Positions 8,077 through 62,404 of a stretch of 64,000 bases of DNA are shown one piece after another. The translations under genes were made by a program, and so were the position numbers. The stretch is from Escherichia coli (GTDB lineage Bacteria > Pseudomonadota > Gammaproteobacteria > Enterobacterales > Enterobacteriaceae). The notes beneath the pieces are model-generated. The model saw only the letters and a list, made by a program, of their open reading frames with translations. It searched no databases and was not told the origin of the DNA. The DNA lies in assembly GCF_016903815.1 (NCBI RefSeq), contig NZ_CP069973.1. One strand, 5' to 3'. How positions within the stretch are numbered: position 1 is the first letter of the stretch; the number at the start of each line of letters is the position of its first letter.

Positions 8077-9735
8077 ATGATTCTTGAGCGCGTTGAAATT
8101 GTGGGTTTTCGCGGTATCAACCGTTTGTCGTTGATGCTGGAACAAAACAACGTCCTGATTGGGGAGAACGCGTGGGGTAAATCCAGCTTGCTGGACGCCT
8201 TAACCCTGCTGCTATCGCCAGAATTAGATCTCTACCATTTTGAGCGCGACGATTTCTGGTTCCCGCCGGGAGATATCAACGGGCGAGAACATCATCTGCA
8301 TATTATTTTGACCTTCCGCGAATCGCTGCCAGGCCGACATCGGGTTCGCCGCTATCGGCCGCTGGAAGCGTGCTGGACGCCATGCACCGATGGCTATCAC
8401 CGTATTTTTTATCGTCTGGAAGGGGAGAGTGCGGAAGACGGCAGCGTGATGACACTGCGCAGTTTTCTCGATAAAGACGGACATCCGATTGATGTCGAGG
8501 ATATTAACGATCAGGCACGCCATCTGGTGCGTTTAATGCCGGTGCTGCGCTTGCGTGATGCCCGTTTTATGCGCCGTATTCGTAACGGCACGGTGCCAAA
8601 TGTCCCCAATGTGGAAGTCACCGCGCGCCAGCTCGATTTCCTCGCCCGTGAGTTGTCCTCACATCCGCAAAATCTCTCTGATGGACAGATTCGTCAGGGA
8701 CTTTCCGCAATGGTACAGCTGCTTGAGCATTATTTCTCTGAGCAGGGGGCCGGACAGGCGCGATATCGTTTAATGCGGCGGCGAGCCAGCAATGAGCAAC
8801 GAAGCTGGCGCTATCTGGATATCATCAACCGGATGATTGACCGACCAGGAGGGCGCTCGTATCGGGTTATTTTGCTCGGCCTGTTTGCTACTTTGTTGCA
8901 GGCAAAAGGCACATTGCGACTGGATAAAGACGCCCGTCCATTGTTGCTGATCGAAGATCCAGAAACCCGTTTACACCCCATTATGCTTTCAGTTGCCTGG
9001 CATCTGTTGAATCTTCTGCCATTGCAGCGCATTGCCACCACCAACTCTGGCGAGCTGCTTTCGTTAACGCCGGTAGAACATGTTTGCCGACTGGTACGTG
9101 AGTCCTCGCGCGTTGCCGCCTGGCGTCTGGGGCCGAGTGGTTTGAGTACCGAAGACAGCCGACGCATCTCTTTCCACATTCGTTTTAATCGTCCGTCATC
9201 GCTGTTTGCACGCTGCTGGCTGCTGGTGGAAGGCGAAACGGAAACCTGGGTTATCAATGAACTGGCGCGTCAGTGCGGACATCATTTTGATGCCGAAGGG
9301 ATCAAGGTCATTGAGTTTGCCCAGTCCGGGCTAAAGCCACTGGTTAAATTTGCCCGGCGAATGGGGATTGAATGGCATGTACTGGTCGATGGCGATGAGG
9401 CAGGGAAGAAATATGCCGCTACGGTACGCAGCCTGTTGAATAACGATCGGGAAGCCGAACGAGAACATTTAACGGCGTTACCGGCGCTGGATATGGAACA
9501 TTTTATGTATCGCCAGGGATTTTCCGATGTGTTCCACCGCGTGGCGCAAATCCCGGAAAATGTACCGATGAATCTGCGCAAAATTATCTCGAAAGCGATC
9601 CATCGCTCTTCCAAACCCGATCTTGCCATTGAAGTGGCAATGGAGGCAGGACGTCGTGGTGTGGATTCCGTACCGACGCTGCTGAAAAAAATGTTCTCAC
9701 GCGTGCTGTGGCTGGCGCGCGGTCGCGCGGATTAA
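8077..9735 (+). CDS. ybjD: OLD-family ATP-dependent endonuclease (AAA ATPase + Toprim), core-genome YbjD
   Basis: 552-aa ORF; N-terminal Walker A (GENAWGKSSLLDA); C-terminal Toprim-like region; synteny. Confidence 0.9.
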   Translation: MILERVEIVGFRGINRLSLMLEQNNVLIGENAWGKSSLLDALTLLLSPELDLYHFERDDFWFPPGDINGREHHLHIILTFRESLPGRHRVRRYRPLEACWTPCTDGYHRIFYRLEGESAEDGSVMTLRSFLDKDGHPIDVEDINDQARHLVRLMPVLRLRDARFMRRIRNGTVPNVPNVEVTARQLDFLARELSSHPQNLSDGQIRQGLSAMVQLLEHYFSEQGAGQARYRLMRRRASNEQRSWRYLDIINRMIDRPGGRSYRVILLGLFATLLQAKGTLRLDKDARPLLLIEDPETRLHPIMLSVAWHLLNLLPLQRIATTNSGELLSLTPVEHVCRLVRESSRVAAWRLGPSGLSTEDSRRISFHIRFNRPSSLFARCWLLVEGETETWVINELARQCGHHFDAEGIKVIEFAQSGLKPLVKFARRMGIEWHVLVDGDEAGKKYAATVRSLLNNDREAEREHLTALPALDMEHFMYRQGFSDVFHRVAQIPENVPMNLRKIISKAIHRSSKPDLAIEVAMEAGRRGVDSVPTLLKKMFSRVLWLARGRAD

Positions 9736-10724
9736 CCGCGAAACATCGTGGCCATTTGTGGCTGAATAGCGTCGAGCATCTCATAGCGCCGACGGTATTC
9801 AGCCCGTTTTTTACTGGCGATTTCGGCAATCTCTTTTCGTGCTATCTGTGCCGGAAGGCGGTAATGGCGTTCAGCATCACATACGCCGCCTACCGACTCC
9901 CAGAACGCGTTGTAATCAGCATGGATCTTGCCTTCTTTATCGCGATAACGCAGGCTGCGGTAAATATGTGTTTCATTGCTGACGGCAATGATCTGCTCTA
10001 CCTGCAAACGTTGGGCAAACAGACAGGCCGCTTCCATCACAAGGCGTTTGGGAAATAGCCCGTGGCAGGCTTTCGTCGCATTCTGGATTTCCTGATGTGG
10101 AATTTCCCATTTTGCGCCTTGCAGTCCGCCAATAAACATTGTTCTTTCCCCCTGATATTCACACAGGGTAAACGTGATCTCTGCCAGAGGAATACCTTCG
10201 CTGTTGCGGAACAGGATTGTGCTGTCACCTTCTTTATCCATTGAGATCATCATGGTCAGCTCAAGTGTGAACTGCTCGCCGTTTTTGCCTTCCAGCTTCG
10301 CCAGTTGCAGCCCGGGGGTATTCAAATATAAGCTGAATTCTTCCGCCGACATACATCCGCGGAGTAACGCATAATGGTAACGTAACGCCTCCAGCAATTG
10401 CTTACGGCTAAGATTCGCCGCAAGGTAAGGGCGATGCAGACGCACAGGCAGTCGCGGCTGGCGCGTTAACAACACATTGAGATTAGGCCAGTGGGAAAGT
10501 TCGTTCATCCACTCAACGCTTAAACGCGGCATAATCAACGAGCGCAGCAAAAATTTCTGGCGAAAACTACGGCGATGCCAGAATTTACCCGGCCGACACT
10601 GTCCACGTGCCAGACTAAGAAAAAGTGACAGGCTGCTGAGAGATTCAGATGGCGTAAAGGTCCGTTCAGTTAGCTGCGACATATTCATGAAATCAATGGT
10701 TATACATGACGTCGATTTCACCAT
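9732..10724 (-). CDS. ybjX: DUF535/VirK-family protein YbjX
   Basis: 330-aa ORF convergent with ybjD (4-bp overlap); synteny; start codon not resolved between the MVKST and MNMSQ candidates. Confidence 0.8.
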   Translation of the reverse strand: MVKSTSCITIDFMNMSQLTERTFTPSESLSSLSLFLSLARGQCRPGKFWHRRSFRQKFLLRSLIMPRLSVEWMNELSHWPNLNVLLTRQPRLPVRLHRPYLAANLSRKQLLEALRYHYALLRGCMSAEEFSLYLNTPGLQLAKLEGKNGEQFTLELTMMISMDKEGDSTILFRNSEGIPLAEITFTLCEYQGERTMFIGGLQGAKWEIPHQEIQNATKACHGLFPKRLVMEAACLFAQRLQVEQIIAVSNETHIYRSLRYRDKEGKIHADYNAFWESVGGVCDAERHYRLPAQIARKEIAEIASKKRAEYRRRYEMLDAIQPQMATMFRG

Positions 10725-41916: not shown

Positions 41917-42912
41917 TTATGGACGCATTATGGACATTCCTGACACCGGGTTAAGAGTCACAGCATCTTGTAAGAAATCCGGTGCAAAGTGTGCGTAGGT
42001 CATAGTTTGCTGAATGTTAGAATGACCCAGGATGCGCTGCAATGTGATTATGTTACCTCCATTCATTATAAAATGTGTGGCAAATGTATGCCTCAAAACA
42101 TGCACTGCCTGTCCGTCAGGTAAATCGGGTTTTACTTCCCTGAGAGCGTTGCGCACTTTGTAGTAACTGGCATTAAAAAGCCTGCCTGAATTTTTGGTCT
42201 TGATCCGTTTAATCAGGTCCTGCGAAACGGGAATTGTCCTGCGCTTTCCGTTTTTAGTTTTCATAAACGTAACCATCTGGTTAATGATGTGTTCAGCTTT
42301 CAAATTAGACACTTCACTCCAGCGTCCACCAGTAGAAAGGCAGACCAGAGTTGCATTTAACTCATCACCATCAAGCATGGATAACAGCCGCGTAATCTCT
42401 TCACTGGACAAAAAAGCCATTTCCGTAACAGCTTCACGTAACCGCTTAACCTCACGGAACGGGTTGTGAGAGTGATATTCACCGGCGTCAATTAACTTGG
42501 TGAACATCCCGCTCATTATTGCCAGATGCCGATTTACGCTGGCTGGTTTTAGGCCATCGTTCATCATTACAACGCGATAATCAGTTATCGTTTTCTTTGT
42601 TAGCTGGTCCGCCCTGGACACTCCCATCTCGGCAAATTTGGCGATTATTGTCGTCAAACGCCCTCGTTCAATATCTCCACGCTCATGTGATTTTCCGTGA
42701 TATATCCACCATCTGCCTAACAACTCTGTAAGAGTTCGGCGGTCGGCCGGCTTCTCCAACCACTCTTTGTTGTGGTAGTTAACCAGGACATGACGTTCGA
42801 ATGCTTGAGCTTCACCTTTAGTTTTAAATTTCCGCCTGATACGTTTTCCATCTGCACCCTGCGGTCTGACGTCCACTTCATAACGACCATCATCGAGCTT
42901 TTTAATAGACAT
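41917..42912 (-). CDS. int: phage tyrosine integrase (P2-family)
   Basis: 331 aa MSIKKLDDGRYEVDVRPQGADGKRIRRKF; C-terminal catalytic region with HxxR (VLRHTFATH) and terminal Tyr (TMTYAHF). Confidence 0.92.
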   Translation of the reverse strand: MSIKKLDDGRYEVDVRPQGADGKRIRRKFKTKGEAQAFERHVLVNYHNKEWLEKPADRRTLTELLGRWWIYHGKSHERGDIERGRLTTIIAKFAEMGVSRADQLTKKTITDYRVVMMNDGLKPASVNRHLAIMSGMFTKLIDAGEYHSHNPFREVKRLREAVTEMAFLSSEEITRLLSMLDGDELNATLVCLSTGGRWSEVSNLKAEHIINQMVTFMKTKNGKRRTIPVSQDLIKRIKTKNSGRLFNASYYKVRNALREVKPDLPDGQAVHVLRHTFATHFIMNGGNIITLQRILGHSNIQQTMTYAHFAPDFLQDAVTLNPVSGMSIMRP

Positions 42913-48393: not shown

Positions 48394-48429
48394 TGCGTCC
48401 TCCCTAGTTTCAATAGCATGGAGTTGCCT

Positions 48430-48750
48430 ATGTTACACAGAGCCCTTCGTTTAATAAGGCAATACCATAAAGAGTCATTGGTTGATTTATCAACATCTTT
48501 AGGTATTCCAAAAGAAAAAATAGTAGAACTCGAAAGTGGGGTTTGGTCGCCTACAATTGATGTTTTACAGCGTTACGCCTCCCATTTCGATATGCCGGTA
48601 TCTTCTTTAGTATTTTTTTCAGAATCGTTAGGTACGCAGGGGCGTTTATCTAAGCGTTTCCGTTTAAATTTAGCTGGTAAAGTATTAGATGTTATTGAGT
48701 GGGCGAATAAGAAAAATGAAAAGACGAATAAAACTCAAAATTTCCACTAA
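48430..48750 (+). CDS. XRE/Cro-type helix-turn-helix protein, putative partner of the RT
   Basis: 106 aa from MLHRALRLIRQYHKESLVDLSTSLGIPKEKIVELESGVWSPTIDVLQRYASHFDMPVSSLVFF (HTH_XRE-like pattern); GGAG RBS; 3' end overlaps the RT start. Confidence 0.6.
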   Translation: MLHRALRLIRQYHKESLVDLSTSLGIPKEKIVELESGVWSPTIDVLQRYASHFDMPVSSLVFFSESLGTQGRLSKRFRLNLAGKVLDVIEWANKKNEKTNKTQNFH

Positions 48751-49666
48751 AAATAAATCTTACGATATAATTGATTCGCCGTTTTATAAAATGAGAAGTA
48801 AAAGGAAATTGGCTTCTTTATTGGGGGTTGATGTAGGGGATTTATCAACCTTAAAAAAAGATGAAGGCAATTATTCTATTTTTGAACAGTTATCTAAAAA
48901 CGGAAAGCCACGTAAGATACAAAAACCATTAGAAAAATTAGATGTGGTGCATACTCGTATTGCAAGTCTGCTATCGCGAATTACTTTGCCAGATTATCTA
49001 CATTCTGGAAAGAAGGGATGTTCTAATGTTACTAATGCTAAAATCCACCTTAATAATGAAAGGTTGATGACAACCGACATCAGGGCTTTTTTTCCATCAA
49101 CTACCAGAGAAATGATATTTTCATTCTTTTTTTCTGTTATGAAGATGTCATCTGATGTTGCGGATGTATTATCGTATATATGTACTTGCTATGGGCGTTT
49201 GCCTACAGGTAGCAGGATTAGTATGCCTCTTGCATATTTTGCAAATTCCAGAATGTTCGGAGAAATACACCAACTTTGTAATAAACTACACGTAAATATG
49301 TCTGTTTATGTTGATGATCTAACTTTTTCAGGACAAAACGTTAATAGACTATTTTGTTCAGTGATTCGCAAAATAATAAATAAGCATGGTCATGTGATGC
49401 ATGCGGATAAAACAAAAATTTATAGTAGAGAAAAGCCTAAGTTGGTAACAGGTGTTATTGTTTTGGGCGGTTCTTTAAAAGTCAGGAATAAGCAGCATCT
49501 TTTAATGTCTCAAGAAATTGAATATTGGAAAATGATAAAGGATGCAGCGTGTGCAAGAGAAACTCATACTGCCAAAAAGTTATTTGGACGATTGCATTCT
49601 ATGGGGGTAATTGAACAACGTTATAGATCAAAGGTGCTTACATTAAAAGCAAGTACTGCACTTTAA
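48716..49666 (+). CDS. retron-type reverse transcriptase
   Basis: RT motifs visible: DIRAFFPS (motif A), YVDDLTFSG (motif C), retron-typical NAxxH (NAKIH) and VTG (KLVTGVIVLGG); ~316 aa; start codon uncertain (48689, 48716 or 48791). Confidence 0.8.
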   Translation: MKRRIKLKISTKNKSYDIIDSPFYKMRSKRKLASLLGVDVGDLSTLKKDEGNYSIFEQLSKNGKPRKIQKPLEKLDVVHTRIASLLSRITLPDYLHSGKKGCSNVTNAKIHLNNERLMTTDIRAFFPSTTREMIFSFFFSVMKMSSDVADVLSYICTCYGRLPTGSRISMPLAYFANSRMFGEIHQLCNKLHVNMSVYVDDLTFSGQNVNRLFCSVIRKIINKHGHVMHADKTKIYSREKPKLVTGVIVLGGSLKVRNKQHLLMSQEIEYWKMIKDAACARETHTAKKLFGRLHSMGVIEQRYRSKVLTLKASTAL

Positions 49667-49774
49667 TACAGGTTTCTGTAAGTGATTATATTGTTCTTAA
49701 GATACTTACTGATGTTATTTCCCCGTAGCCTTAATTTCTGCGGGGAAGTATGGAGATATTTTGGTTATGGAATG

Positions 49775-51139
49775 CTAATTTTTTAATGTGTATTTTTCTG
49801 TGATTAGTTTCATTGTTCTTTCCAATCCTAAATATACAGTGGCATCAGTAATATTGAGCACGGCAAGTTCTTTTAAAATTTTCTTTTTGTCTCTGATGTT
49901 TATTTTTTCTGTCTTAAAATTGTATGGTGAATTATCTGCCTGATCGTTGGATATCTCAGGAAAAACGGCGTTATTACCGAATAATAAAAAGGCACCGGAT
50001 TGAGATGATATTCTTTCATTATTTATTCTGCTTTTTACAAAAATTATTTTTTCCAAATCCTCTGGATTTATTATGCTTTTAAAATATGGTTTTTCATGCT
50101 TTATGGATTCTAAGAGTTTAAGGCAAGCATGAGAGCTGTTAAAATCATTATTTCTTTCTTCGAAAGAAAGCTTGTCTTTCATGTCTTTTGATAGCATGCA
50201 TAAATTAGATATGCAACTGACAGTGTCGGAATCGAAAAATTTAATGTTCTCTCTGTGTGTTTTAAATATTATTACTTGACCATCGATATCGTTTTTGTCG
50301 GAATTTATACTACTGCATGCAAAATAAAGTGCAATTAATGGATTTGATGTGATGTCAAGTAAGCGAGTAGGTATGCCATAATGTTGCATTCTTACAAGTT
50401 TATCAAGCATTGATGTATCATCAATGAATTCTGAGGGTCTTGCGCTCAATGCTTCTTTAACAAGGTTGATTTCATTATGTAGAAATTTATAGTTCCCATT
50501 TTCATATTTTCTGAAAAGAGATGGTGCAAGTTCATAAGATGAATCTGAATGACCCCTGTAAAAAATCTCCTCATCCATATCTGCTGTTATATGGAGAACT
50601 TTTTCAATAAATTCTTGTAAACTATTTACGGTTAATAATGTGCTATCTTCGTCTGGGAGAGGCGCTGGACTGCTATCCACTTGTGCATTTTGGTTAATAC
50701 CAAATGTCTTAAGGATATCATCTATATTTTTGTCTTTTATGGCCCAGTGTGTTCTTTTAAGGCCATAAGTTCCGAGTTCTAAACTGCTTTCAACACTTTT
50801 GGCGTCTGATATTTTGATTTCATTGTGTGTATGGGTGATTGCAAATTGGAAGTTGATTTCTTTTCCCTTAATGTGAATATTTGAAATTCTTCCAATTCGT
50901 ATGTCGACATAATAAGGTTTTGCTCCCTCTATTTGATAAGCTTCACTCATGAATATTGTTGGGAGTTTTTCAAGATAAGATAGTACATTACTGCTTAATG
51001 GGGATAGTTTTTTACGAATACCATCGGAGGTGTTTTCAAACATTCGTGATAAAAGAAATGAGAATTCTCCATTATTTTGGCTGAATGGTTTCCAGTGGTC
51101 GTAGTGGTCGGGAAAACCACCCATAATTAAATTAATCAT
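49775..51139 (-). CDS. FRG-domain-like protein (C-terminal FRG-type motifs, uncharacterised N-terminal domain); candidate defense gene
   Basis: 454-aa AT-rich ORF convergent with the RT; motifs FYRGHSDSSYELAPSLFR and RMQHYGIPTRLLDITSNPLIALYFA. Confidence 0.6.
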   Translation of the reverse strand: MINLIMGGFPDHYDHWKPFSQNNGEFSFLLSRMFENTSDGIRKKLSPLSSNVLSYLEKLPTIFMSEAYQIEGAKPYYVDIRIGRISNIHIKGKEINFQFAITHTHNEIKISDAKSVESSLELGTYGLKRTHWAIKDKNIDDILKTFGINQNAQVDSSPAPLPDEDSTLLTVNSLQEFIEKVLHITADMDEEIFYRGHSDSSYELAPSLFRKYENGNYKFLHNEINLVKEALSARPSEFIDDTSMLDKLVRMQHYGIPTRLLDITSNPLIALYFACSSINSDKNDIDGQVIIFKTHRENIKFFDSDTVSCISNLCMLSKDMKDKLSFEERNNDFNSSHACLKLLESIKHEKPYFKSIINPEDLEKIIFVKSRINNERISSQSGAFLLFGNNAVFPEISNDQADNSPYNFKTEKINIRDKKKILKELAVLNITDATVYLGLERTMKLITEKYTLKN

Positions 51140-59953: not shown

Positions 59954-60383
59954 TGCCGTCACGGTGCTGAAAACCAGTCCCGAGATGCTGCGGATATTCG
60001 TGGATAACGGGAGTATTGCCTCCACGCTGGCGACGTCGCTGTCATTCGAAAAGCGTTACACGCTCAATGTCATTGTGACCGACTTTACCGGTGATTTTGA
60101 CCTGCTCATCGTGCCGGTGCTGGCGTGGCTGCGGGAAAATCAGCCCGACATCATGACCACCGACGAAGGCCAGAAAAAGGGCTTCACGTTTTATGCGGAC
60201 ATCAACAATGACAGCAGCTTTGATATCAGCATCAGCCTGATGCTGACCGAGCGCACGCTGGTCAGTGAGGTGGACGGCGCACTGCATGTGAAGAATATCC
60301 CGGAACCTCCGCCGCCGGAGCCGGTCACTCGCCCGATGGAGCTTTATATCAATGGCGAACTGGTGAGCAAGTGGGATGAATGA
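59916..60383 (+). CDS. R: P2 tail completion protein gpR
   Basis: 155-aa ORF MLKPDSLRRALTDAVTVLKTSPEMLRIFVDNGSIAS. Confidence 0.88.
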   Translation: MLKPDSLRRALTDAVTVLKTSPEMLRIFVDNGSIASTLATSLSFEKRYTLNVIVTDFTGDFDLLIVPVLAWLRENQPDIMTTDEGQKKGFTFYADINNDSSFDISISLMLTERTLVSEVDGALHVKNIPEPPPPEPVTRPMELYINGELVSKWDE

Positions 60384-60828
60384 GTTTAAGCGTTTTGAAG
60401 ACCGGCTGACCGGGCTGATTGAATCACTGTCACCATCAGGGCGTCGGCGACTGAGCACCGAACTGGCGAAACATCTGCGGCAGAGTCAGCAGCGCCGGGT
60501 GATGGCACAGAAAGCCCCGGACGGCACACCCTACGCACCACGCCAGCAGCAGAGCGCCAGAAAAAAGACCGGTCGTGTTAAGCGAAAAATGTTTGCGAAA
60601 CTTATCACCAGTCGTTTTTTGCATATCCGCGCCAGCCCGGAACAGGCATCAATGGAGTTTTACGGCGGAAAGTCACCGAAAATCGCCAGTGTGCATCAGT
60701 TCGGTCTGTCGGAAGAAACCCGGAAAGACGGTAAGAAAATTGATTATCCGGCGCGTCCTCTGCTCGGCTTTACCGGTGAGGATGTGCAGATGATTGAAGA
60801 GATTATCCTGGCTCACCTTGAGCGTTAG
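60376..60828 (+). CDS. S: P2 tail completion protein gpS
   Basis: 150-aa ORF MNEFKRFEDRLTGLIESLSPSGRRRLSTELAKHLRQSQQRRV. Confidence 0.88.
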   Translation: MNEFKRFEDRLTGLIESLSPSGRRRLSTELAKHLRQSQQRRVMAQKAPDGTPYAPRQQQSARKKTGRVKRKMFAKLITSRFLHIRASPEQASMEFYGGKSPKIASVHQFGLSEETRKDGKKIDYPARPLLGFTGEDVQMIEEIILAHLER

Positions 60829-60858
60829 TTTTATCCAGGCAGAGGCTGATGCGCAATT

Positions 60859-60893
60859 AAACATTGAGCGGCCATGCTGGTCGCTCAATGTTT
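60859..60893. terminator. bidirectional hairpin between S and the antisense cargo gene
   Basis: aaacattgagcg-gccatgctggt-cgctcaatgttt: 12-bp perfect stem. Confidence 0.5.
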
Positions 60894-60899
60894 AGAGGT

Positions 60900-61685
60900 T
60901 TATGAGTGATTTTTATTTGATGCTTTGTATTCTAAAACCTTCTTATTGGCGTAAAAGAATTTTGTATATGACAGGAATATAACCAGACCTGAAGTGAAAT
61001 AGACGAGGGATAGTATTAATAATGCTTTTTTGTGACTGTTATTGTCTTTAATCTCCTGGCTTAACCATTCGGAGTCCTCCTCGTTTAACTGTAAGAGCTT
61101 ATTGCAGGCGATCTCAGGAAGTGTGTCTTTTATAAATACGTTTTGCAGTCTCTTGCAATCGGCAAGGCTATAAGTTTTATTAAATTCAACTGCTTTATTT
61201 TTGAAGGATAAAAGAACTTTGTCACTATAAACATAGTACATCATGTTTTTATATGGTATGCCTATGGCATCCCTTACTATAACGGATTGTTCGTTGTGTA
61301 TGTAACATGCGAGGAGAATGTAAAAAATACTGGCCAGAATTACAATTATTGTTTTAATTACGTGTGGTGGTTTTGTTATGTCACCCCAGATGCGAGTAAG
61401 GAAAAAATACGATGTTTTTAGTTTTCCATCAATCAGTCCCTGCTGTATCATTCTCACATTTTCAATGCCTGATACATTGATTCCGTTAATTATTTTAAAT
61501 AGTTGAATGTCGCGCCACTCGCGGTCAAGTCTTTTTAATTTTTTGTCTGAATATCCAAAATTGAGATAATGTGCAATAAGCCTCATAAGGTTACTTTTAC
61601 CAAAGCTAAAAAATGCTAATACTGCAAAGCTACAAAGGAAAAAAACGATTAGCCCCCACACATTAGTCACATTATAGCTGACCAT
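60900..61685 (-). CDS. AT-rich cargo (moron) gene encoding a 261-aa predicted membrane protein, function unknown
   Basis: Antisense to the late operon between S and V; hydrophobic segments near residues 9-28, 113-133 and 220-240; composition strongly AT-rich compared with flanking P2 genes. Confidence 0.65.
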   Translation of the reverse strand: MVSYNVTNVWGLIVFFLCSFAVLAFFSFGKSNLMRLIAHYLNFGYSDKKLKRLDREWRDIQLFKIINGINVSGIENVRMIQQGLIDGKLKTSYFFLTRIWGDITKPPHVIKTIIVILASIFYILLACYIHNEQSVIVRDAIGIPYKNMMYYVYSDKVLLSFKNKAVEFNKTYSLADCKRLQNVFIKDTLPEIACNKLLQLNEEDSEWLSQEIKDNNSHKKALLILSLVYFTSGLVIFLSYTKFFYANKKVLEYKASNKNHS

Positions 61686-61768
61686 TACGCTCTCCTTGAA
61701 TGTTGTCTGGTAGTTCTACAAATGAATCCAGATAGCATAACTTTTATATATTGTGCAATCTCACATGC

Positions 61769-62404
61769 ATGAACACTCTCGCAAATATTCAGGAACTCGC
61801 GCGCGCACTGCGCAACATGATTCGCACCGGCATTATCGTCGAAACCGACCTTAACGCCGGTCGCTGCCGTGTGCAGACCGGCGGCATGTGCACCGACTGG
61901 CTTCAGTGGCTGACCCATCGTGCCGGACGTTCACGCACATGGTGGGCACCTTCCGTGGGGGAACAGGTGCTGATTCTGGCCGTGGGCGGTGAACTCGACA
62001 CGGCGTTCGTTCTGCCGGGGATTTATTCCGGCGATAACCCTCCGCCGTCTGCGTCGGCGGATGCCCTGCACATACGTTTCCCTGACGGGGCGGTGATTGA
62101 ATATGAACCCGAAACCAGTGCACTCACGGTAAGCGGAATTAAAACGGCCAGCGTGACGGCTTCTGATTCTGTTACTGCCACGGTGCCGGTGGTCATGGTG
62201 AAAGCATCAACCCGCGTCACCCTGGACACCCCGGAGGTGGTCTGCACCAACAGGCTGATTACCGGCACGCTGGAAGTGCAGAAGGGCGGGACGATGCGCG
62301 GCAACATTGAACACACCGGCGGTGAACTCTCATCAAACGGTAAGGTACTGCATACCCATAAACACCCCGGCGACAGCGGCGGCACAACCGGGAGTCCTTT
62401 ATGA
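61769..62404 (+). CDS. V: P2 baseplate spike protein gpV
   Basis: 211 aa from MNTLANIQELARALRNMIRTGIIVETDLNAGRCRVQTGG. Confidence 0.9.
   Translation: MNTLANIQELARALRNMIRTGIIVETDLNAGRCRVQTGGMCTDWLQWLTHRAGRSRTWWAPSVGEQVLILAVGGELDTAFVLPGIYSGDNPPPSASADALHIRFPDGAVIEYEPETSALTVSGIKTASVTASDSVTATVPVVMVKASTRVTLDTPEVVCTNRLITGTLEVQKGGTMRGNIEHTGGELSSNGKVLHTHKHPGDSGGTTGSPL

What the first reader, a model, noticed from the sequence alone, without database searches (positions are those of the whole stretch)
60900..61685. AT-rich antisense membrane-protein gene inserted between tail genes S and V
A 261-aa ORF with three hydrophobic segments lies on the opposite strand of the late operon, with its own flanking hairpin (60859-60893) and a short upstream gap. 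Its composition is much more AT-rich than the neighbouring structural genes. From memory, P2 carries a small low-GC ORF (orf30) at this S/V junction, so this appears to be a second cargo site with a different, larger payload. Membrane proteins expressed from prophages at such sites often act in superinfection exclusion or abortive infection, but I recognise no family for this one.
Basis: partly seen in the sequence, partly recalled or inferred. Interest (0 to 1): 0.6.

Follow-up and report, generated by a model that had tools for sequence, protein, structure and literature searches.

The report
Phage P2 orf30 membrane-protein gene
The AT-rich backwards gene between tail genes S and V is phage P2's own long-known, non-essential gene orf30, not a new payload; what its inner-membrane protein does is still unknown, and blocking rival phages is the best guess.

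Summary
The sequence features are real: a 261-aa ORF on the minus strand (60900-61685), GC 0.34 against 0.54-0.60 in the neighbouring genes, three hydrophobic helices, and a strong hairpin at 60859-60893. This is not a different, larger payload. It is P2 orf30 itself: 258/261 residues identical, the same 786 bp, the same position and strand. The hairpin is P2's annotated O-operon terminator, and the upstream gap holds the annotated activator site of the V promoter.

The cargo idea holds. About 29% of E. coli genomes with this S/V region carry orf30, most have an empty 66-bp junction, and a few carry other genes.

Orf30 belongs to a small family tied to P2-like phages. Eight of 12 distant relatives (17-32% identical) also lie next to V on the opposite strand, all at about 30-35% GC. 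The gene is kept intact (71 of 72 complete copies; pN/pS 0.26-0.37 in the soluble domains).

There is no informative match in Pfam, PADLOC, PDB or the fold libraries. Some relatives weakly match DUF6216.

The function is untested. The best guess (about 0.4) is exclusion of incoming phage at the inner membrane. The gene is already known, so interest is low to moderate.

The parts
60376..60828 (+). Gene S (tail completion / virion morphogenesis). It is the last gene of the P2 O late operon and the left flank of the junction.
   Evidence: 97% aa identity to P2 gpS. Annotated in AF063097.
60857..60895 (.). Hairpin between the convergent genes S and orf30 (stem 60859-60893). It is P2's annotated putative rho-independent terminator of the O operon. 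It probably terminates transcription in both directions.
   Evidence: P2 feature 9397-9433 maps here with an offset of 51461. It folds at -26.8 kcal/mol on the + strand and -21.3 on the - strand, z about -5.8. The Rfam hits here are far below gathering score and are spurious. The hairpin is absent from the empty-junction variant.
60900..61685 (-). orf30 coding sequence: 261 aa, 30.4 kDa, pI 9.4. Predicted 3-TM inner-membrane protein with the N-terminus outside and the C-terminus inside.
   Evidence: 258/261 identical to P2 Orf30; PHROG 2407, E 1.8e-148.
61602..61661 (-). Codons 9-28: TM1, the N-terminal anchor helix. This is the fastest-evolving part of the protein.
   Evidence: Hydropathy. 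AF2 helix 6-28. pN/pS 1.17 for codons 1-28 (N-terminus plus TM1) among 54 alleles.
61362..61601 (-). Codons 29-108: predicted cytoplasmic helical domain with 14 K/R against 7 D/E. It holds the family's most conserved motif, D59-x-Q-L-F-[KR]-x-x-N-G-[IV]-N-V (codons 59-71, 61473-61511), and the invariant residues G68 and G87.
   Evidence: Charge counts. Alignment A2. Lowest column entropy of the six regions, 2.00 bits. pN/pS 0.37.
61302..61361 (-). Codons 109-128: TM2.
   Evidence: pN/pS 0.53.
61029..61301 (-). Codons 129-219: predicted periplasmic domain. It has a four-stranded beta sheet (141-173) and two short helices. It carries Cys177, which is conserved or shifted by 1-2 residues in relatives, and Cys194, which is invariant. 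These two cysteines may form a disulfide.
   Evidence: AF2 secondary structure. Alignment A2. Net charge about -1. pN/pS 0.26.
60966..61028 (-). Codons 220-240: TM3. It lies within one long helix (202-260) that continues into a basic cytoplasmic tail.
   Evidence: pN/pS 1.48.
61691..61697 (-). Shine-Dalgarno sequence AAGGAGA, 5 nt upstream of the orf30 ATG.
   Evidence: Read directly from the sequence.
61700..61727 (+). Activator (Ogr) binding site of the late promoter pV, transferred from the P2 annotation. It starts only 3 nt beyond the orf30 Shine-Dalgarno sequence, so any orf30 promoter must overlap the pV region.
   Evidence: P2 misc_feature 10239-10266 plus offset 51461. A related ...ACACAAC... 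element sits about 60-68 nt from the V start in seven distant loci.
61769..62404 (+). Gene V (baseplate spike). It is the first gene of the V operon, transcribed divergently from orf30, and forms the right flank of the junction.
   Evidence: 99% aa identity to P2 gpV.

Best explanation
Identity (near certain). The feature is gene orf30 of bacteriophage P2, carried by a P2-like prophage of E. coli. It is a non-essential accessory gene ('moron') set backwards between the end of the O late operon (gene S) and the start of the V operon. A hairpin terminator lies on one side and the Ogr-dependent V promoter on the other.

Product (predicted). It encodes a 30-kDa inner-membrane protein with three transmembrane helices. 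The short N-terminus is outside. An 80-residue basic helical domain with the family's conserved motif lies in the cytoplasm. A 90-residue beta/alpha domain with a conserved cysteine pair lies in the periplasm. A basic C-terminal tail lies in the cytoplasm.

Function (inferred, about 0.4). The protein is made in the lysogen and protects it from incoming phages at the inner membrane. It would do this by interfering with passage of phage DNA or ejection proteins, as P22 SieA and T4 Imm do. A less likely version is that it triggers membrane failure on infection. This would make it the fourth anti-phage gene of P2, after old, tin and fun(Z).
For: Identity:
- 258/261 aa identical to P2 Orf30, with the same length, strand and neighbours.
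- Full-length match to PHROG 2407.

Accessory status:
- The P2 record marks the gene 'nonessential'.
- 459 of 1584 E. coli complete genomes with this S/V region carry it. Most of the rest have a 66-bp empty junction, and rare ones carry unrelated genes.
- GC is 0.34 against 0.54-0.60 in the flanks.

The gene is functional:
- 71 of 72 complete close copies in IMG/VR are intact at 261 aa.
- pN/pS is 0.26-0.37 in the two soluble domains.

Membrane protein and topology:
- Hydropathy and the positive-inside rule.
- AF2 model with pLDDT 83.7 and pTM 0.72.
- A conserved Cys pair in the loop predicted to be periplasmic.

Fast evolution at a fixed place, as expected for a conflict gene:
- In other P2-like phages V is 74-83% identical, R 73-79% and J 78-82%, but the Orf30 homologue is only 26-34% identical (L002, L008, L010-L012).
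- Among close alleles dN/dS is 0.44-0.58, against 0.05-0.16 in the flanking genes.
- One locus has two tandem paralogues.

Precedent:
- P2's other accessory genes old, tin and fun(Z) are described in the literature as phage-exclusion or defence genes. The papers read here report or retest activity for old and tin (PMC9122126, PMC9519451).
- P22 SieA is a 3-TM inner-membrane protein, encoded backwards at the end of the late genes. Its sequence types are under 30% identical to each other, and it has a conserved cytoplasmic motif (PMC10883804).
Against: - There is no experimental or expression evidence.
- No sigma-70 consensus promoter lies upstream of orf30. Expression in the lysogen is therefore assumed, not shown.
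- There is no homology to any PADLOC defence family, either for Orf30 or for eight relatives.
- There is no homology to SieA (hhalign probability 0.2%).
- Functional screens of E. coli DNA against T4, lambda-vir and T7 recovered seven systems from P2-like prophages. None of their PADLOC families matches Orf30, even though orf30 is common (PMC9519451).
- Within close alleles the periplasmic domain is the most constrained part (pN/pS 0.26). It is therefore not an obvious arms-race surface. The excess amino-acid change falls in TM1 and TM3, which could simply reflect loose constraint on anchor helices.
Confidence: 0.4

Rival explanations
1. Host-fitness or lysogenic-conversion factor unrelated to phages. 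Orf30 would alter envelope physiology, for example stress tolerance, surface properties or colonisation. The prophage would keep it because it helps the host.
For: There is a precedent in a P2-like prophage. neaT is an AT-rich backwards gene at the G/FI moron site of CFT073 and promotes fitness in bacteraemia (PMC3573123). Orf30 is an envelope protein with domains on both sides of the membrane. It is common in clinical and animal E. coli isolates.
Against: The family is almost confined to P2-like phages and sits at one junction across several genera. A general host-benefit gene would be expected to spread to other elements and to chromosomes. No domain links it to a metabolic or surface-modifying activity.
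Confidence: 0.2
2. Accessory role in P2's own lytic cycle. For example, Orf30 could tune lysis timing together with the membrane proteins Y (holin) and LysA. It could block superinfection or re-adsorption during late infection. It could assist injection or assembly at the membrane.
For: The gene lies just downstream of the lysis and tail-completion block. It shares its upstream region with the Ogr-activated V promoter. It is always placed next to V across distant phages, with a gap of 82-165 nt. No independent promoter was recognised.
Against: The gene is annotated non-essential. It is absent from about 71% of close E. coli relatives with otherwise 96-97% identical S and V. It lies on the strand opposite the late genes. 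The Ogr dyad centre is only about 28 nt from the ATG. A standard -55 geometry would therefore put a divergent start site inside the ORF (inference).
Confidence: 0.15
3. Abortive-infection membrane effector. The conserved cytoplasmic domain would sense an infection cue, and the protein would then depolarise or permeabilise the inner membrane, in the manner of RexB or other TM effectors. The infected cell would die before releasing phage.
For: This is a single-gene membrane protein whose most conserved motif lies on the cytoplasmic side. Many single-gene TM effectors are known in defence systems, several of them in P2 and P4 hotspots (PMC9122126).
Against: Only three TM helices are present. TM1 and TM3 evolve almost neutrally, which fits poorly with a sequence-specific pore. 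There is no partner sensor gene in the cassette. There is no PADLOC match.
Confidence: 0.12
4. Functionless passenger. Orf30 would be a silenced horizontally acquired remnant carried along by P2.
For: GC is low and no promoter was recognised. No phenotype has been reported.
Against: 71 of 72 complete copies are intact, and none of 54 distinct alleles has an indel. The soluble domains are under purifying selection, with pN/pS 0.26-0.37. The fold, the topology and a motif are kept down to 17% identity. A strong Shine-Dalgarno sequence is present.
Confidence: 0.03

Closest known systems
Bacteriophage P2 Orf30 (AAD03281.1; AF063097 9439-10224, complement; PHROG 2407)
   Same: It is the same gene. 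258/261 aa are identical, the length is 786 bp, and it lies on the minus strand between S and V. It has the same terminator hairpin and the same pV activator site.
   Different: There are three amino-acid substitutions (L41F, V109I, I141T when read as window to P2). The surrounding prophage differs from P2 elsewhere. Its gpA-gpQ hotspot carries a type VI retron and a PDC-S15 candidate instead of tin and old.
Pfam DUF6216 (PF19723), an uncharacterised proteobacterial membrane-protein family
   Same: 3 of 29 Orf30-family members match it at E<=1e-3, and 6 at E<=0.1. Foldseek recovers a protein labelled DUF6216 with the same 3-TM fold and a similar size.
   Different: The window protein itself gives no Pfam hit even at E<=10. 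DUF6216 has no known function, and the searched library holds no paper about it.
P22 SieA superinfection-exclusion protein
   Same: Both are prophage-encoded inner-membrane proteins with three predicted TM helices. Both are encoded on the opposite strand at the end of the late genes. Both have sequence types under 30% identical to each other and a conserved cytoplasmic motif (PMC10883804).
   Different: There is no detectable homology (hhalign probability 0.2%). SieA has 162-164 aa against 261. SieA has no counterpart of the 90-residue periplasmic beta domain. SieA's function is demonstrated and Orf30's is not.
P2 accessory genes old, tin and fun(Z), and the P2 cargo hotspots
   Same: All are low-GC, non-essential, horizontally acquired genes at fixed junctions of the same phage. 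The orf30 site is listed with the TO-region and the Z-region as a place where P2-like phages carry foreign genes (PMC3091744).
   Different: Old, tin and fun(Z) are described as phage-exclusion genes, and the papers read here report or retest activity for old and tin. They lie at the A/Q and G/FI junctions. Recent hotspot surveys concentrate on those sites, and the ones read here do not discuss the S/V junction explicitly. Unlike those highly swapped sites, the S/V junction in E. coli is mostly either empty or occupied by orf30.

Membership tests
P2 Orf30 / PHROG 2407 | Full-length sequence match to P2 Orf30 and to the PHROG 2407 profile | tested here: met
   258/261 residues identical with no gaps. 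PHROG 2407 E 1.8e-148, covering residues 1-261 of 261.
P2 Orf30 / PHROG 2407 | Position between tail-completion gene S and baseplate gene V, on the opposite strand | tested here: met
   The same arrangement is seen in 79 of 80 IMG/VR loci.
Pfam DUF6216 (PF19723) | Significant match to the Pfam HMM | tested here: inconclusive
   The window protein gives no hit at E<=10. 3 of 29 family members hit at E<=1e-3, with a best E-value of 1.3e-5. This suggests a distant relationship, not demonstrated membership.
Moron / lysogenic-conversion gene | Non-essential and variably present among otherwise near-identical phages | tested here: met
   P2 annotation 'nonessential'. Present in 459 of 1584 E. coli genomes with this S/V region, and empty junctions are common.
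Moron / lysogenic-conversion gene | Atypical base composition and its own transcription signals | tested here: inconclusive
   Composition is met: GC 0.34 against 0.54-0.60. The terminator hairpin is met. No consensus promoter was found.
Moron / lysogenic-conversion gene | Expressed from the repressed prophage | not testable with these tools
   Needs RNA-seq or 5'-end mapping of a lysogen. No such data for orf30 were found in the library.
P22 SieA-type superinfection exclusion | Sequence or profile homology to SieA | tested here: not met
   hhalign of the family profile A2 against P22 SieA gives probability 0.2% and E 0.25.
P22 SieA-type superinfection exclusion | [quoted passage not shown] | not testable with these tools
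   Membrane location is predicted only. Testing exclusion needs plating, K+ efflux and DNA-entry assays.
Known anti-phage defence systems (PADLOC-DB 2.0) | Match to any defence-protein HMM | tested here: not met
   0 families at E<=1 for Orf30. Eight relatives gave no family except one chance-level Csm2 hit (E 0.02) for P0008.
P2 tail / assembly structural component | Universally present and essential in the lineage, with a virion-protein fold | tested here: not met
   Absent from about 71% of close E. coli S/V junctions. Annotated non-essential. 3-TM membrane fold with no structural-protein match.

The most novel reading that the evidence does not exclude
The Orf30/DUF6216-like proteins would be an unrecognised single-gene family of inner-membrane anti-phage (superinfection-exclusion) proteins. 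The family has lived next to the baseplate-spike gene V of P2-like phages across Enterobacterales and Pasteurellales and diversifies there. This would make orf30 the fourth, and last unassigned, defence gene of the model phage P2. It would also make the S/V junction a defence locus that hotspot surveys have overlooked.
Probability: 0.35. Interest if true: 0.55.

Novelty: already known. Interest (0 to 1): 0.3.

Why it matters
The gene itself is not new. P2 orf30 is annotated in the deposited P2 genome, and the S/V junction was already listed as a site of foreign genes by 2010. What remains open is its function. It is the only P2 accessory gene considered here (alongside old, tin and fun(Z)) for which no role has been reported.

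This analysis makes the question more tractable in several ways:
- The gene is under purifying selection.
- It encodes a two-sided 3-TM inner-membrane protein with a defined conserved cytoplasmic motif and a periplasmic cysteine pair.
- It belongs to a family that has stayed beside gene V in P2-like phages of several genera, diverging about three times further than its neighbours.
- It is present in roughly 8% of complete E. coli genomes (459-463 of 5426).

If it proves to be an exclusion protein, it would add a new membrane-level defence family that is easy to study in a classic model phage.

Tried and rejected
Searches that gave nothing informative:
- Pfam.
- NCBIfam, with only a chance hit far below cut-off.
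- PADLOC.
- PDB sequence search.
- Foldseek against BFVD viral structures: nothing at E<=0.001.
- Foldseek against AFDB50: only uncharacterised proteins.
- Rfam: two sub-threshold miRNA hits on the hairpin, judged spurious.

Technical failure:
- The search for related loci with the full 29-sequence alignment failed because no stretch was conserved enough. It was repeated with a 4-sequence alignment.

Leads considered and rejected:
- neaT, the AT-rich backwards gene in the CFT073 P2-like prophage. It lies at the G/FI junction and is an acyltransferase, so it is unrelated.
- Homology to P22 SieA.
- A lipoprotein. The 'FFLC' at residues 15-18 is not a lipobox, and Cys18 varies among alleles (C/F/L).
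- An internal start at Met34, suggested by the near-neutral evolution of codons 1-28. The N-terminal hydrophobic helix, its length and the start position are kept in relatives down to 17% identity. No allele has a stop or frameshift there. A strong Shine-Dalgarno sequence precedes ATG1.
- Activation of orf30 by Ogr from the pV dyad. The geometry does not fit.
- The alternative cargo at the junction, a 357-aa backwards gene and a 246-aa forward gene. Neither is in the Orf30 family, and neither has a significant Pfam or PADLOC match.

Promoter scans found nothing convincing.
Full report
**1. The observation**

The window has an ATG-initiated ORF of 261 codons at 60900..61685 on the minus strand. 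GC falls from about 0.55-0.60 on both sides to 0.34-0.36 across it. The exact values are 0.342 for the ORF, 0.536 for the left neighbour and 0.596 for the right neighbour.

A 19-residue hydropathy scan gives three hydrophobic segments at about residues 9-28, 109-128 and 220-240.

The inverted repeat at 60859-60893 folds into a long stem on either strand. The free energies are -26.8 and -21.3 kcal/mol, with z-scores of -5.9 and -5.6 against 200 shuffles, and no shuffle folded as well.

**2. Identity**

Megablast of 60300-62300 against the phage collection gives bacteriophage P2 (AF063097) as the best hit. Identity is 97.8% over the full 2 kb in a single piece.

The P2 record annotates the following at the matching positions:
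- gene S;
- a 'putative rho-independent terminator for O operon' (9397-9433);
- orf30 on the complement strand (9439-10224, 'nonessential');
- an 'activator binding site; activation of pV promoter' (10239-10266);
- gene V.

With the constant offset of 51461, these map to the hairpin (60858-60894), the ORF (60900-61685), 61700-61727 and 61769.

The translated ORF is 258/261 identical to P2 Orf30, with no gaps. Its calculated mass is 30.39 kDa, which matches the '30' in the gene's name.

That is mistaken: this is orf30. One paper in the library makes the same slip, calling it 'the short, 261-bp-long ORF30' (PMC6823313).

**3. What is known about orf30**

Full-text searches found no reported function.
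- A comparative paper lists 'Orf30 - unknown'. It names orf30, the TO-region and the Z-region as the three places where P2-like phages carry genes absent from P2, and it predicts that these arrived by horizontal transfer (PMC3091744).
- Phage R18C has a different 741-bp ORF at the junction (PMC6823313).
- A Burkholderia phage has a DNA methylase there (PMC13366799).
- The recent defence-hotspot studies focus on the gpA-gpQ and G-FI junctions (PMC9122126, PMC9519451, 10.1101/2024.10.15.618418, 10.64898/2026.02.27.708500).

**4. Is it cargo?**

The 2029-bp S-orf30-V segment was searched against 5426 complete E. coli genomes. It matched 1584 genomes, and 459 of those (29%) contain orf30.

In the evenly spaced sample of rows, most of the others span 1155 bp, meaning S and V are separated by 66 bp with no gene.

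Rare variants carry other genes:
- a 357-aa gene on the opposite strand with two C-terminal hydrophobic segments (L013);
- a 246-aa gene on the same strand as the tail genes (L014, the same 741-bp size as the R18C ORF).

Both are about 35% GC, unrelated to Orf30, and without significant Pfam or PADLOC matches.

Identity between the empty and occupied versions stops right after the S stop codon and resumes at the V start codon. The whole intergenic segment therefore differs between them.

An imperfect 17-nt direct repeat lies at the two edges, 60810-60826 and 61688-61704. It matches at 13 of 17 positions, and 29 of 1000 shuffles reach that score. This is a weak hint of how the cassette was joined.

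The 'cargo site' idea is supported, and it was already in the literature.

**5. The protein**

Database matches:
- Pfam, PADLOC and the PDB sequence search gave nothing useful, and NCBIfam gave only a chance-level hit (E 0.018, 15 bits against a cut-off of 120).
- PHROG 2407, of unknown function, is matched end to end.

An AlphaFold2 model built on a 29-sequence family alignment is confident, with mean pLDDT 83.7 and pTM 0.72. It shows:
- helix 6-28 (TM1);
- a four-helix segment at 30-94;
- helix 109-134 (TM2);
- a four-stranded sheet at 141-173, followed by two short helices;
- one long helix at 202-260, which contains TM3.

Charge counts by region:

| Region | K/R | D/E |
|---|---|---|
| Residues 1-8 | 0 | 0 |
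| Loop 29-108 | 14 | 7 |
| Loop 129-219 | 12 | 13 |
| Tail 241-261 | 5 | 1 |

By the positive-inside rule, the N-terminus is outside, the first loop and the tail are cytoplasmic, and the second loop is periplasmic.

Cys194 is invariant, and Cys177 is conserved or shifted by a residue or two in nearly all relatives. A disulfide between them would fit a periplasmic location. The topology and the disulfide are predictions.

Fold searches:
- Foldseek against viral models gave nothing at E<=0.001.
- Foldseek against AFDB50 returned only uncharacterised membrane proteins of 250-310 aa. They come from E. coli, Enterobacter, Yersinia, Pectobacterium, Serratia and Aggregatibacter. At lower TM-scores they also come from Pseudomonas, Xanthomonas, Stenotrophomonas and Cupriavidus. 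A few are labelled DUF3592, DUF2207 or DUF6216.

Scanning every family member against Pfam gave DUF6216 for 3 of 29 at E<=1e-3 and 6 of 29 at E<=0.1. No paper on DUF6216 exists in the library.

**6. The family and where it lives**

A word-indexed search found only five clusters, at 98, 87, 84, 79 and 39% identity.

An exhaustive profile search of 1.84 billion representatives found 44 proteins, 36 of them at E<=1e-10. About 22 are full-length, 250-270 aa, and 17-32% identical to the query.

Conserved features:
- the three hydrophobic helices;
- the motif D-x-Q-L-F-[KR]-x-x-N-G-[IV]-N-V at residues 59-71;
- G68, G87, C194 and I212.

I looked up the genomic context of 12 distant representatives:
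- Eight lie immediately next to gene V of a P2-type tail cluster and are transcribed divergently from it. The gap is 82-165 nt. These are P0006, P0008, P0021, P0023, P0026, P0029, P0032 and P0047.
- In seven of those eight, S lies on the other side, sometimes with extra cargo in between (L020, L022). The eighth, L009, is a truncated remnant.
- One (P0034) lies between int and ogr of a P2-like prophage.
- One (P0037) lies next to a phage portal gene.
- Two are on contigs too short to judge.
- One locus (L009) has two tandem paralogues, P0021 and P0044.

A scan of IMG/VR returned 80 loci. In 79 of them V is adjacent and divergent. The gap is 83-85 nt in 78 of them and 154 nt in the other.

This family is therefore not a random insert. 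It is the characteristic occupant of the V-proximal side of the junction in P2-like phages of several genera.

**7. How it evolves**

In five loci from distantly related P2-like phages (L002, L008, L010-L012), identity to the window's proteins is as follows:

| Protein | Identity to the window |
|---|---|
| V | 74-83% |
| R | 73-79% |
| J | 78-82% |
| S | 47-51% |
| Orf30 homologue | 26-34% |

The family gene is 30-35% GC in every locus, whatever the GC of the phage, which ranges from 0.48 to 0.58.

Among close E. coli alleles, dS of orf30 is 0.10-0.22, similar to or up to twice that of its neighbours. However, dN is 5-10 times higher. This gives dN/dS of 0.44-0.58, against 0.05-0.16 for R, S, V and W.

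Over 54 distinct alleles (46 distinct proteins), pN/pS by region is as follows:

| Region | pN/pS |
|---|---|
| N-terminus plus TM1 (codons 1-28) | 1.17 |
| Cytoplasmic domain (29-108) | 0.37 |
| TM2 (109-128) | 0.53 |
| Periplasmic domain (129-219) | 0.26 |
| TM3 (220-240) | 1.48 |
| Whole gene | 0.48 |

Of 72 complete close copies, 71 are intact at 261 codons and one is truncated to 222.

The gene is clearly maintained by selection. Its soluble domains are constrained, and two of its three membrane helices change freely. Pairwise counts cannot tell whether this is loose constraint on anchors or selection on contacts within the membrane.

**8. Expression signals**

A strong Shine-Dalgarno sequence, AAGGAGA at 61691-61697, lies 5 nt before the ATG.

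No sigma-70 consensus promoter was found on the minus strand upstream. The best candidate matches 8 of 12 positions with a 19-nt spacer.

The annotated Ogr site of pV begins 3 nt beyond the Shine-Dalgarno sequence. Any orf30 promoter must therefore overlap the pV region.

An ...ACACAAC... element sits at a similar distance from the V start in seven distant loci.

Whether orf30 is transcribed in the lysogen is unknown. This is the weakest link in any functional argument.

**9. Mechanism**

Shown or directly computed:
- the gene's identity;
- its accessory status;
- its conservation;
- its membrane character.

Predicted:
- the topology;
- the disulfide.

Inferred: I commit to an anti-phage role at the inner membrane as the single most likely function, at about 0.4. 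Adding the abortive-infection variant raises this to about 0.5.

Reasons for:
- P2's other accessory genes old, tin and fun(Z) are described as phage-exclusion genes.
- The gene evolves much faster than its neighbours at a fixed locus, with tandem paralogues in one phage.
- P22 SieA offers a close parallel. It has three TM helices, sits in the inner membrane, is encoded backwards at the end of the late genes, has types under 30% identical to each other, and has a conserved cytoplasmic motif.

Reasons against:
- Orf30 is not homologous to SieA or to any PADLOC family.
- The published functional selection against T4, lambda-vir and T7 recovered seven P2-prophage systems but evidently not this common gene.
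- The periplasmic domain is the most conserved part among close alleles.

The rivals are:
- a phage-independent host-fitness factor (0.2; precedent neaT);
- a role in P2's own lytic cycle (0.15);
- an abortive-infection membrane effector (0.12);
- a functionless passenger (0.03).

**10. Verdict**

It is wrong in calling this a payload different from P2 orf30.

The gene is already known, and its function remains an open question.

The family-level picture obtained here may be a useful starting point for experiments. It consists of fixed residence beside V, a link to DUF6216, a two-sided topology and a defined set of conserved residues. It does not make the original finding novel.

Noticed in passing
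window 48418-51139: The gpA-gpQ hotspot of this prophage (about 47.9-51.5 kb, GC about 0.33) does not carry P2's tin and old. It holds a type VI retron-like pair: HTH_VI at 48418-48750 (+), E 7e-30, and RT_VI at 48689-49666 (+), E 1e-105. On the other strand it holds a 454-aa PDC-S15 candidate defence protein at 49775-51139, E 9e-98. The prophage starts near 41.8 kb (integrase at 41917-42912, minus strand) and most resembles phage pro147.
   Followed up: partly
L009 6001-7658: A P2-like remnant carries two tandem Orf30-family paralogues (P0021 and P0044) next to gene V. This suggests duplication or stacking of alleles at this junction.
   Followed up: partly
L110 2421-3179; L111 1496-2254: An Orf30-family member (P0034) lies between the integrase and ogr of another P2-like prophage. 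The family can therefore also occupy the att-proximal cargo site.
   Followed up: no
window 60810-60826 and 61688-61704: An imperfect 17-nt direct repeat sits at the two edges of the orf30 cassette: GGCTCACCTTGAGCGTT and CGCTCTCCTTGAATGTT. It matches at 13 of 17 positions, and 29 of 1000 shuffles reach that score. The right copy supplies the orf30 Shine-Dalgarno sequence. It may be a trace of the joining event, or it may be chance.
   Followed up: partly
window 60966-61028 and 61602-61685 (codons 220-240 and 1-28): TM3 and the N-terminus plus TM1 of Orf30 have pN/pS of 1.48 and 1.17 among 54 alleles, while the soluble domains are at 0.26-0.37. This could be relaxed constraint on anchor helices or diversifying selection within the membrane. 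It needs a site-model test.
   Followed up: partly
L015 754-819 (empty S/V junction, E. coli NZ_CP135458): The 66-bp empty junction is not simply the occupied junction minus orf30. Its sequence differs throughout. It has its own GC-rich hairpin (GCCGCCGG...CCGGCGGC) and a TGT...ACA dyad at about the same distance from the V start as the P2 Ogr site. pV therefore seems to be kept in both versions.
   Followed up: partly
L020 4300-5940; L022 4377-5714: In other genera, extra cargo sits between the Orf30-like gene and S. One example is an ORF6N-domain protein with weak PADLOC PDC-S05 matches (E 9e-7) plus two small ORFs. Another is a 445-aa DUF4062 protein at 34% GC.
   Followed up: partly
E. coli B-LamR NZ_CP115179 2101804-2103541 (hit H68): This E. 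coli B-lineage strain appears to retain orf30 in a deleted P2-like remnant. Part of S, then orf30 and V, lie next to a portal gene. Common laboratory B strains may therefore carry the gene.
   Followed up: no
PMC6823313 (R18C paper): The paper describes P2 ORF30 as 'short, 261-bp-long'. The gene is 786 bp and 261 codons. This misprint could spread the idea that orf30 is small.
   Followed up: yes
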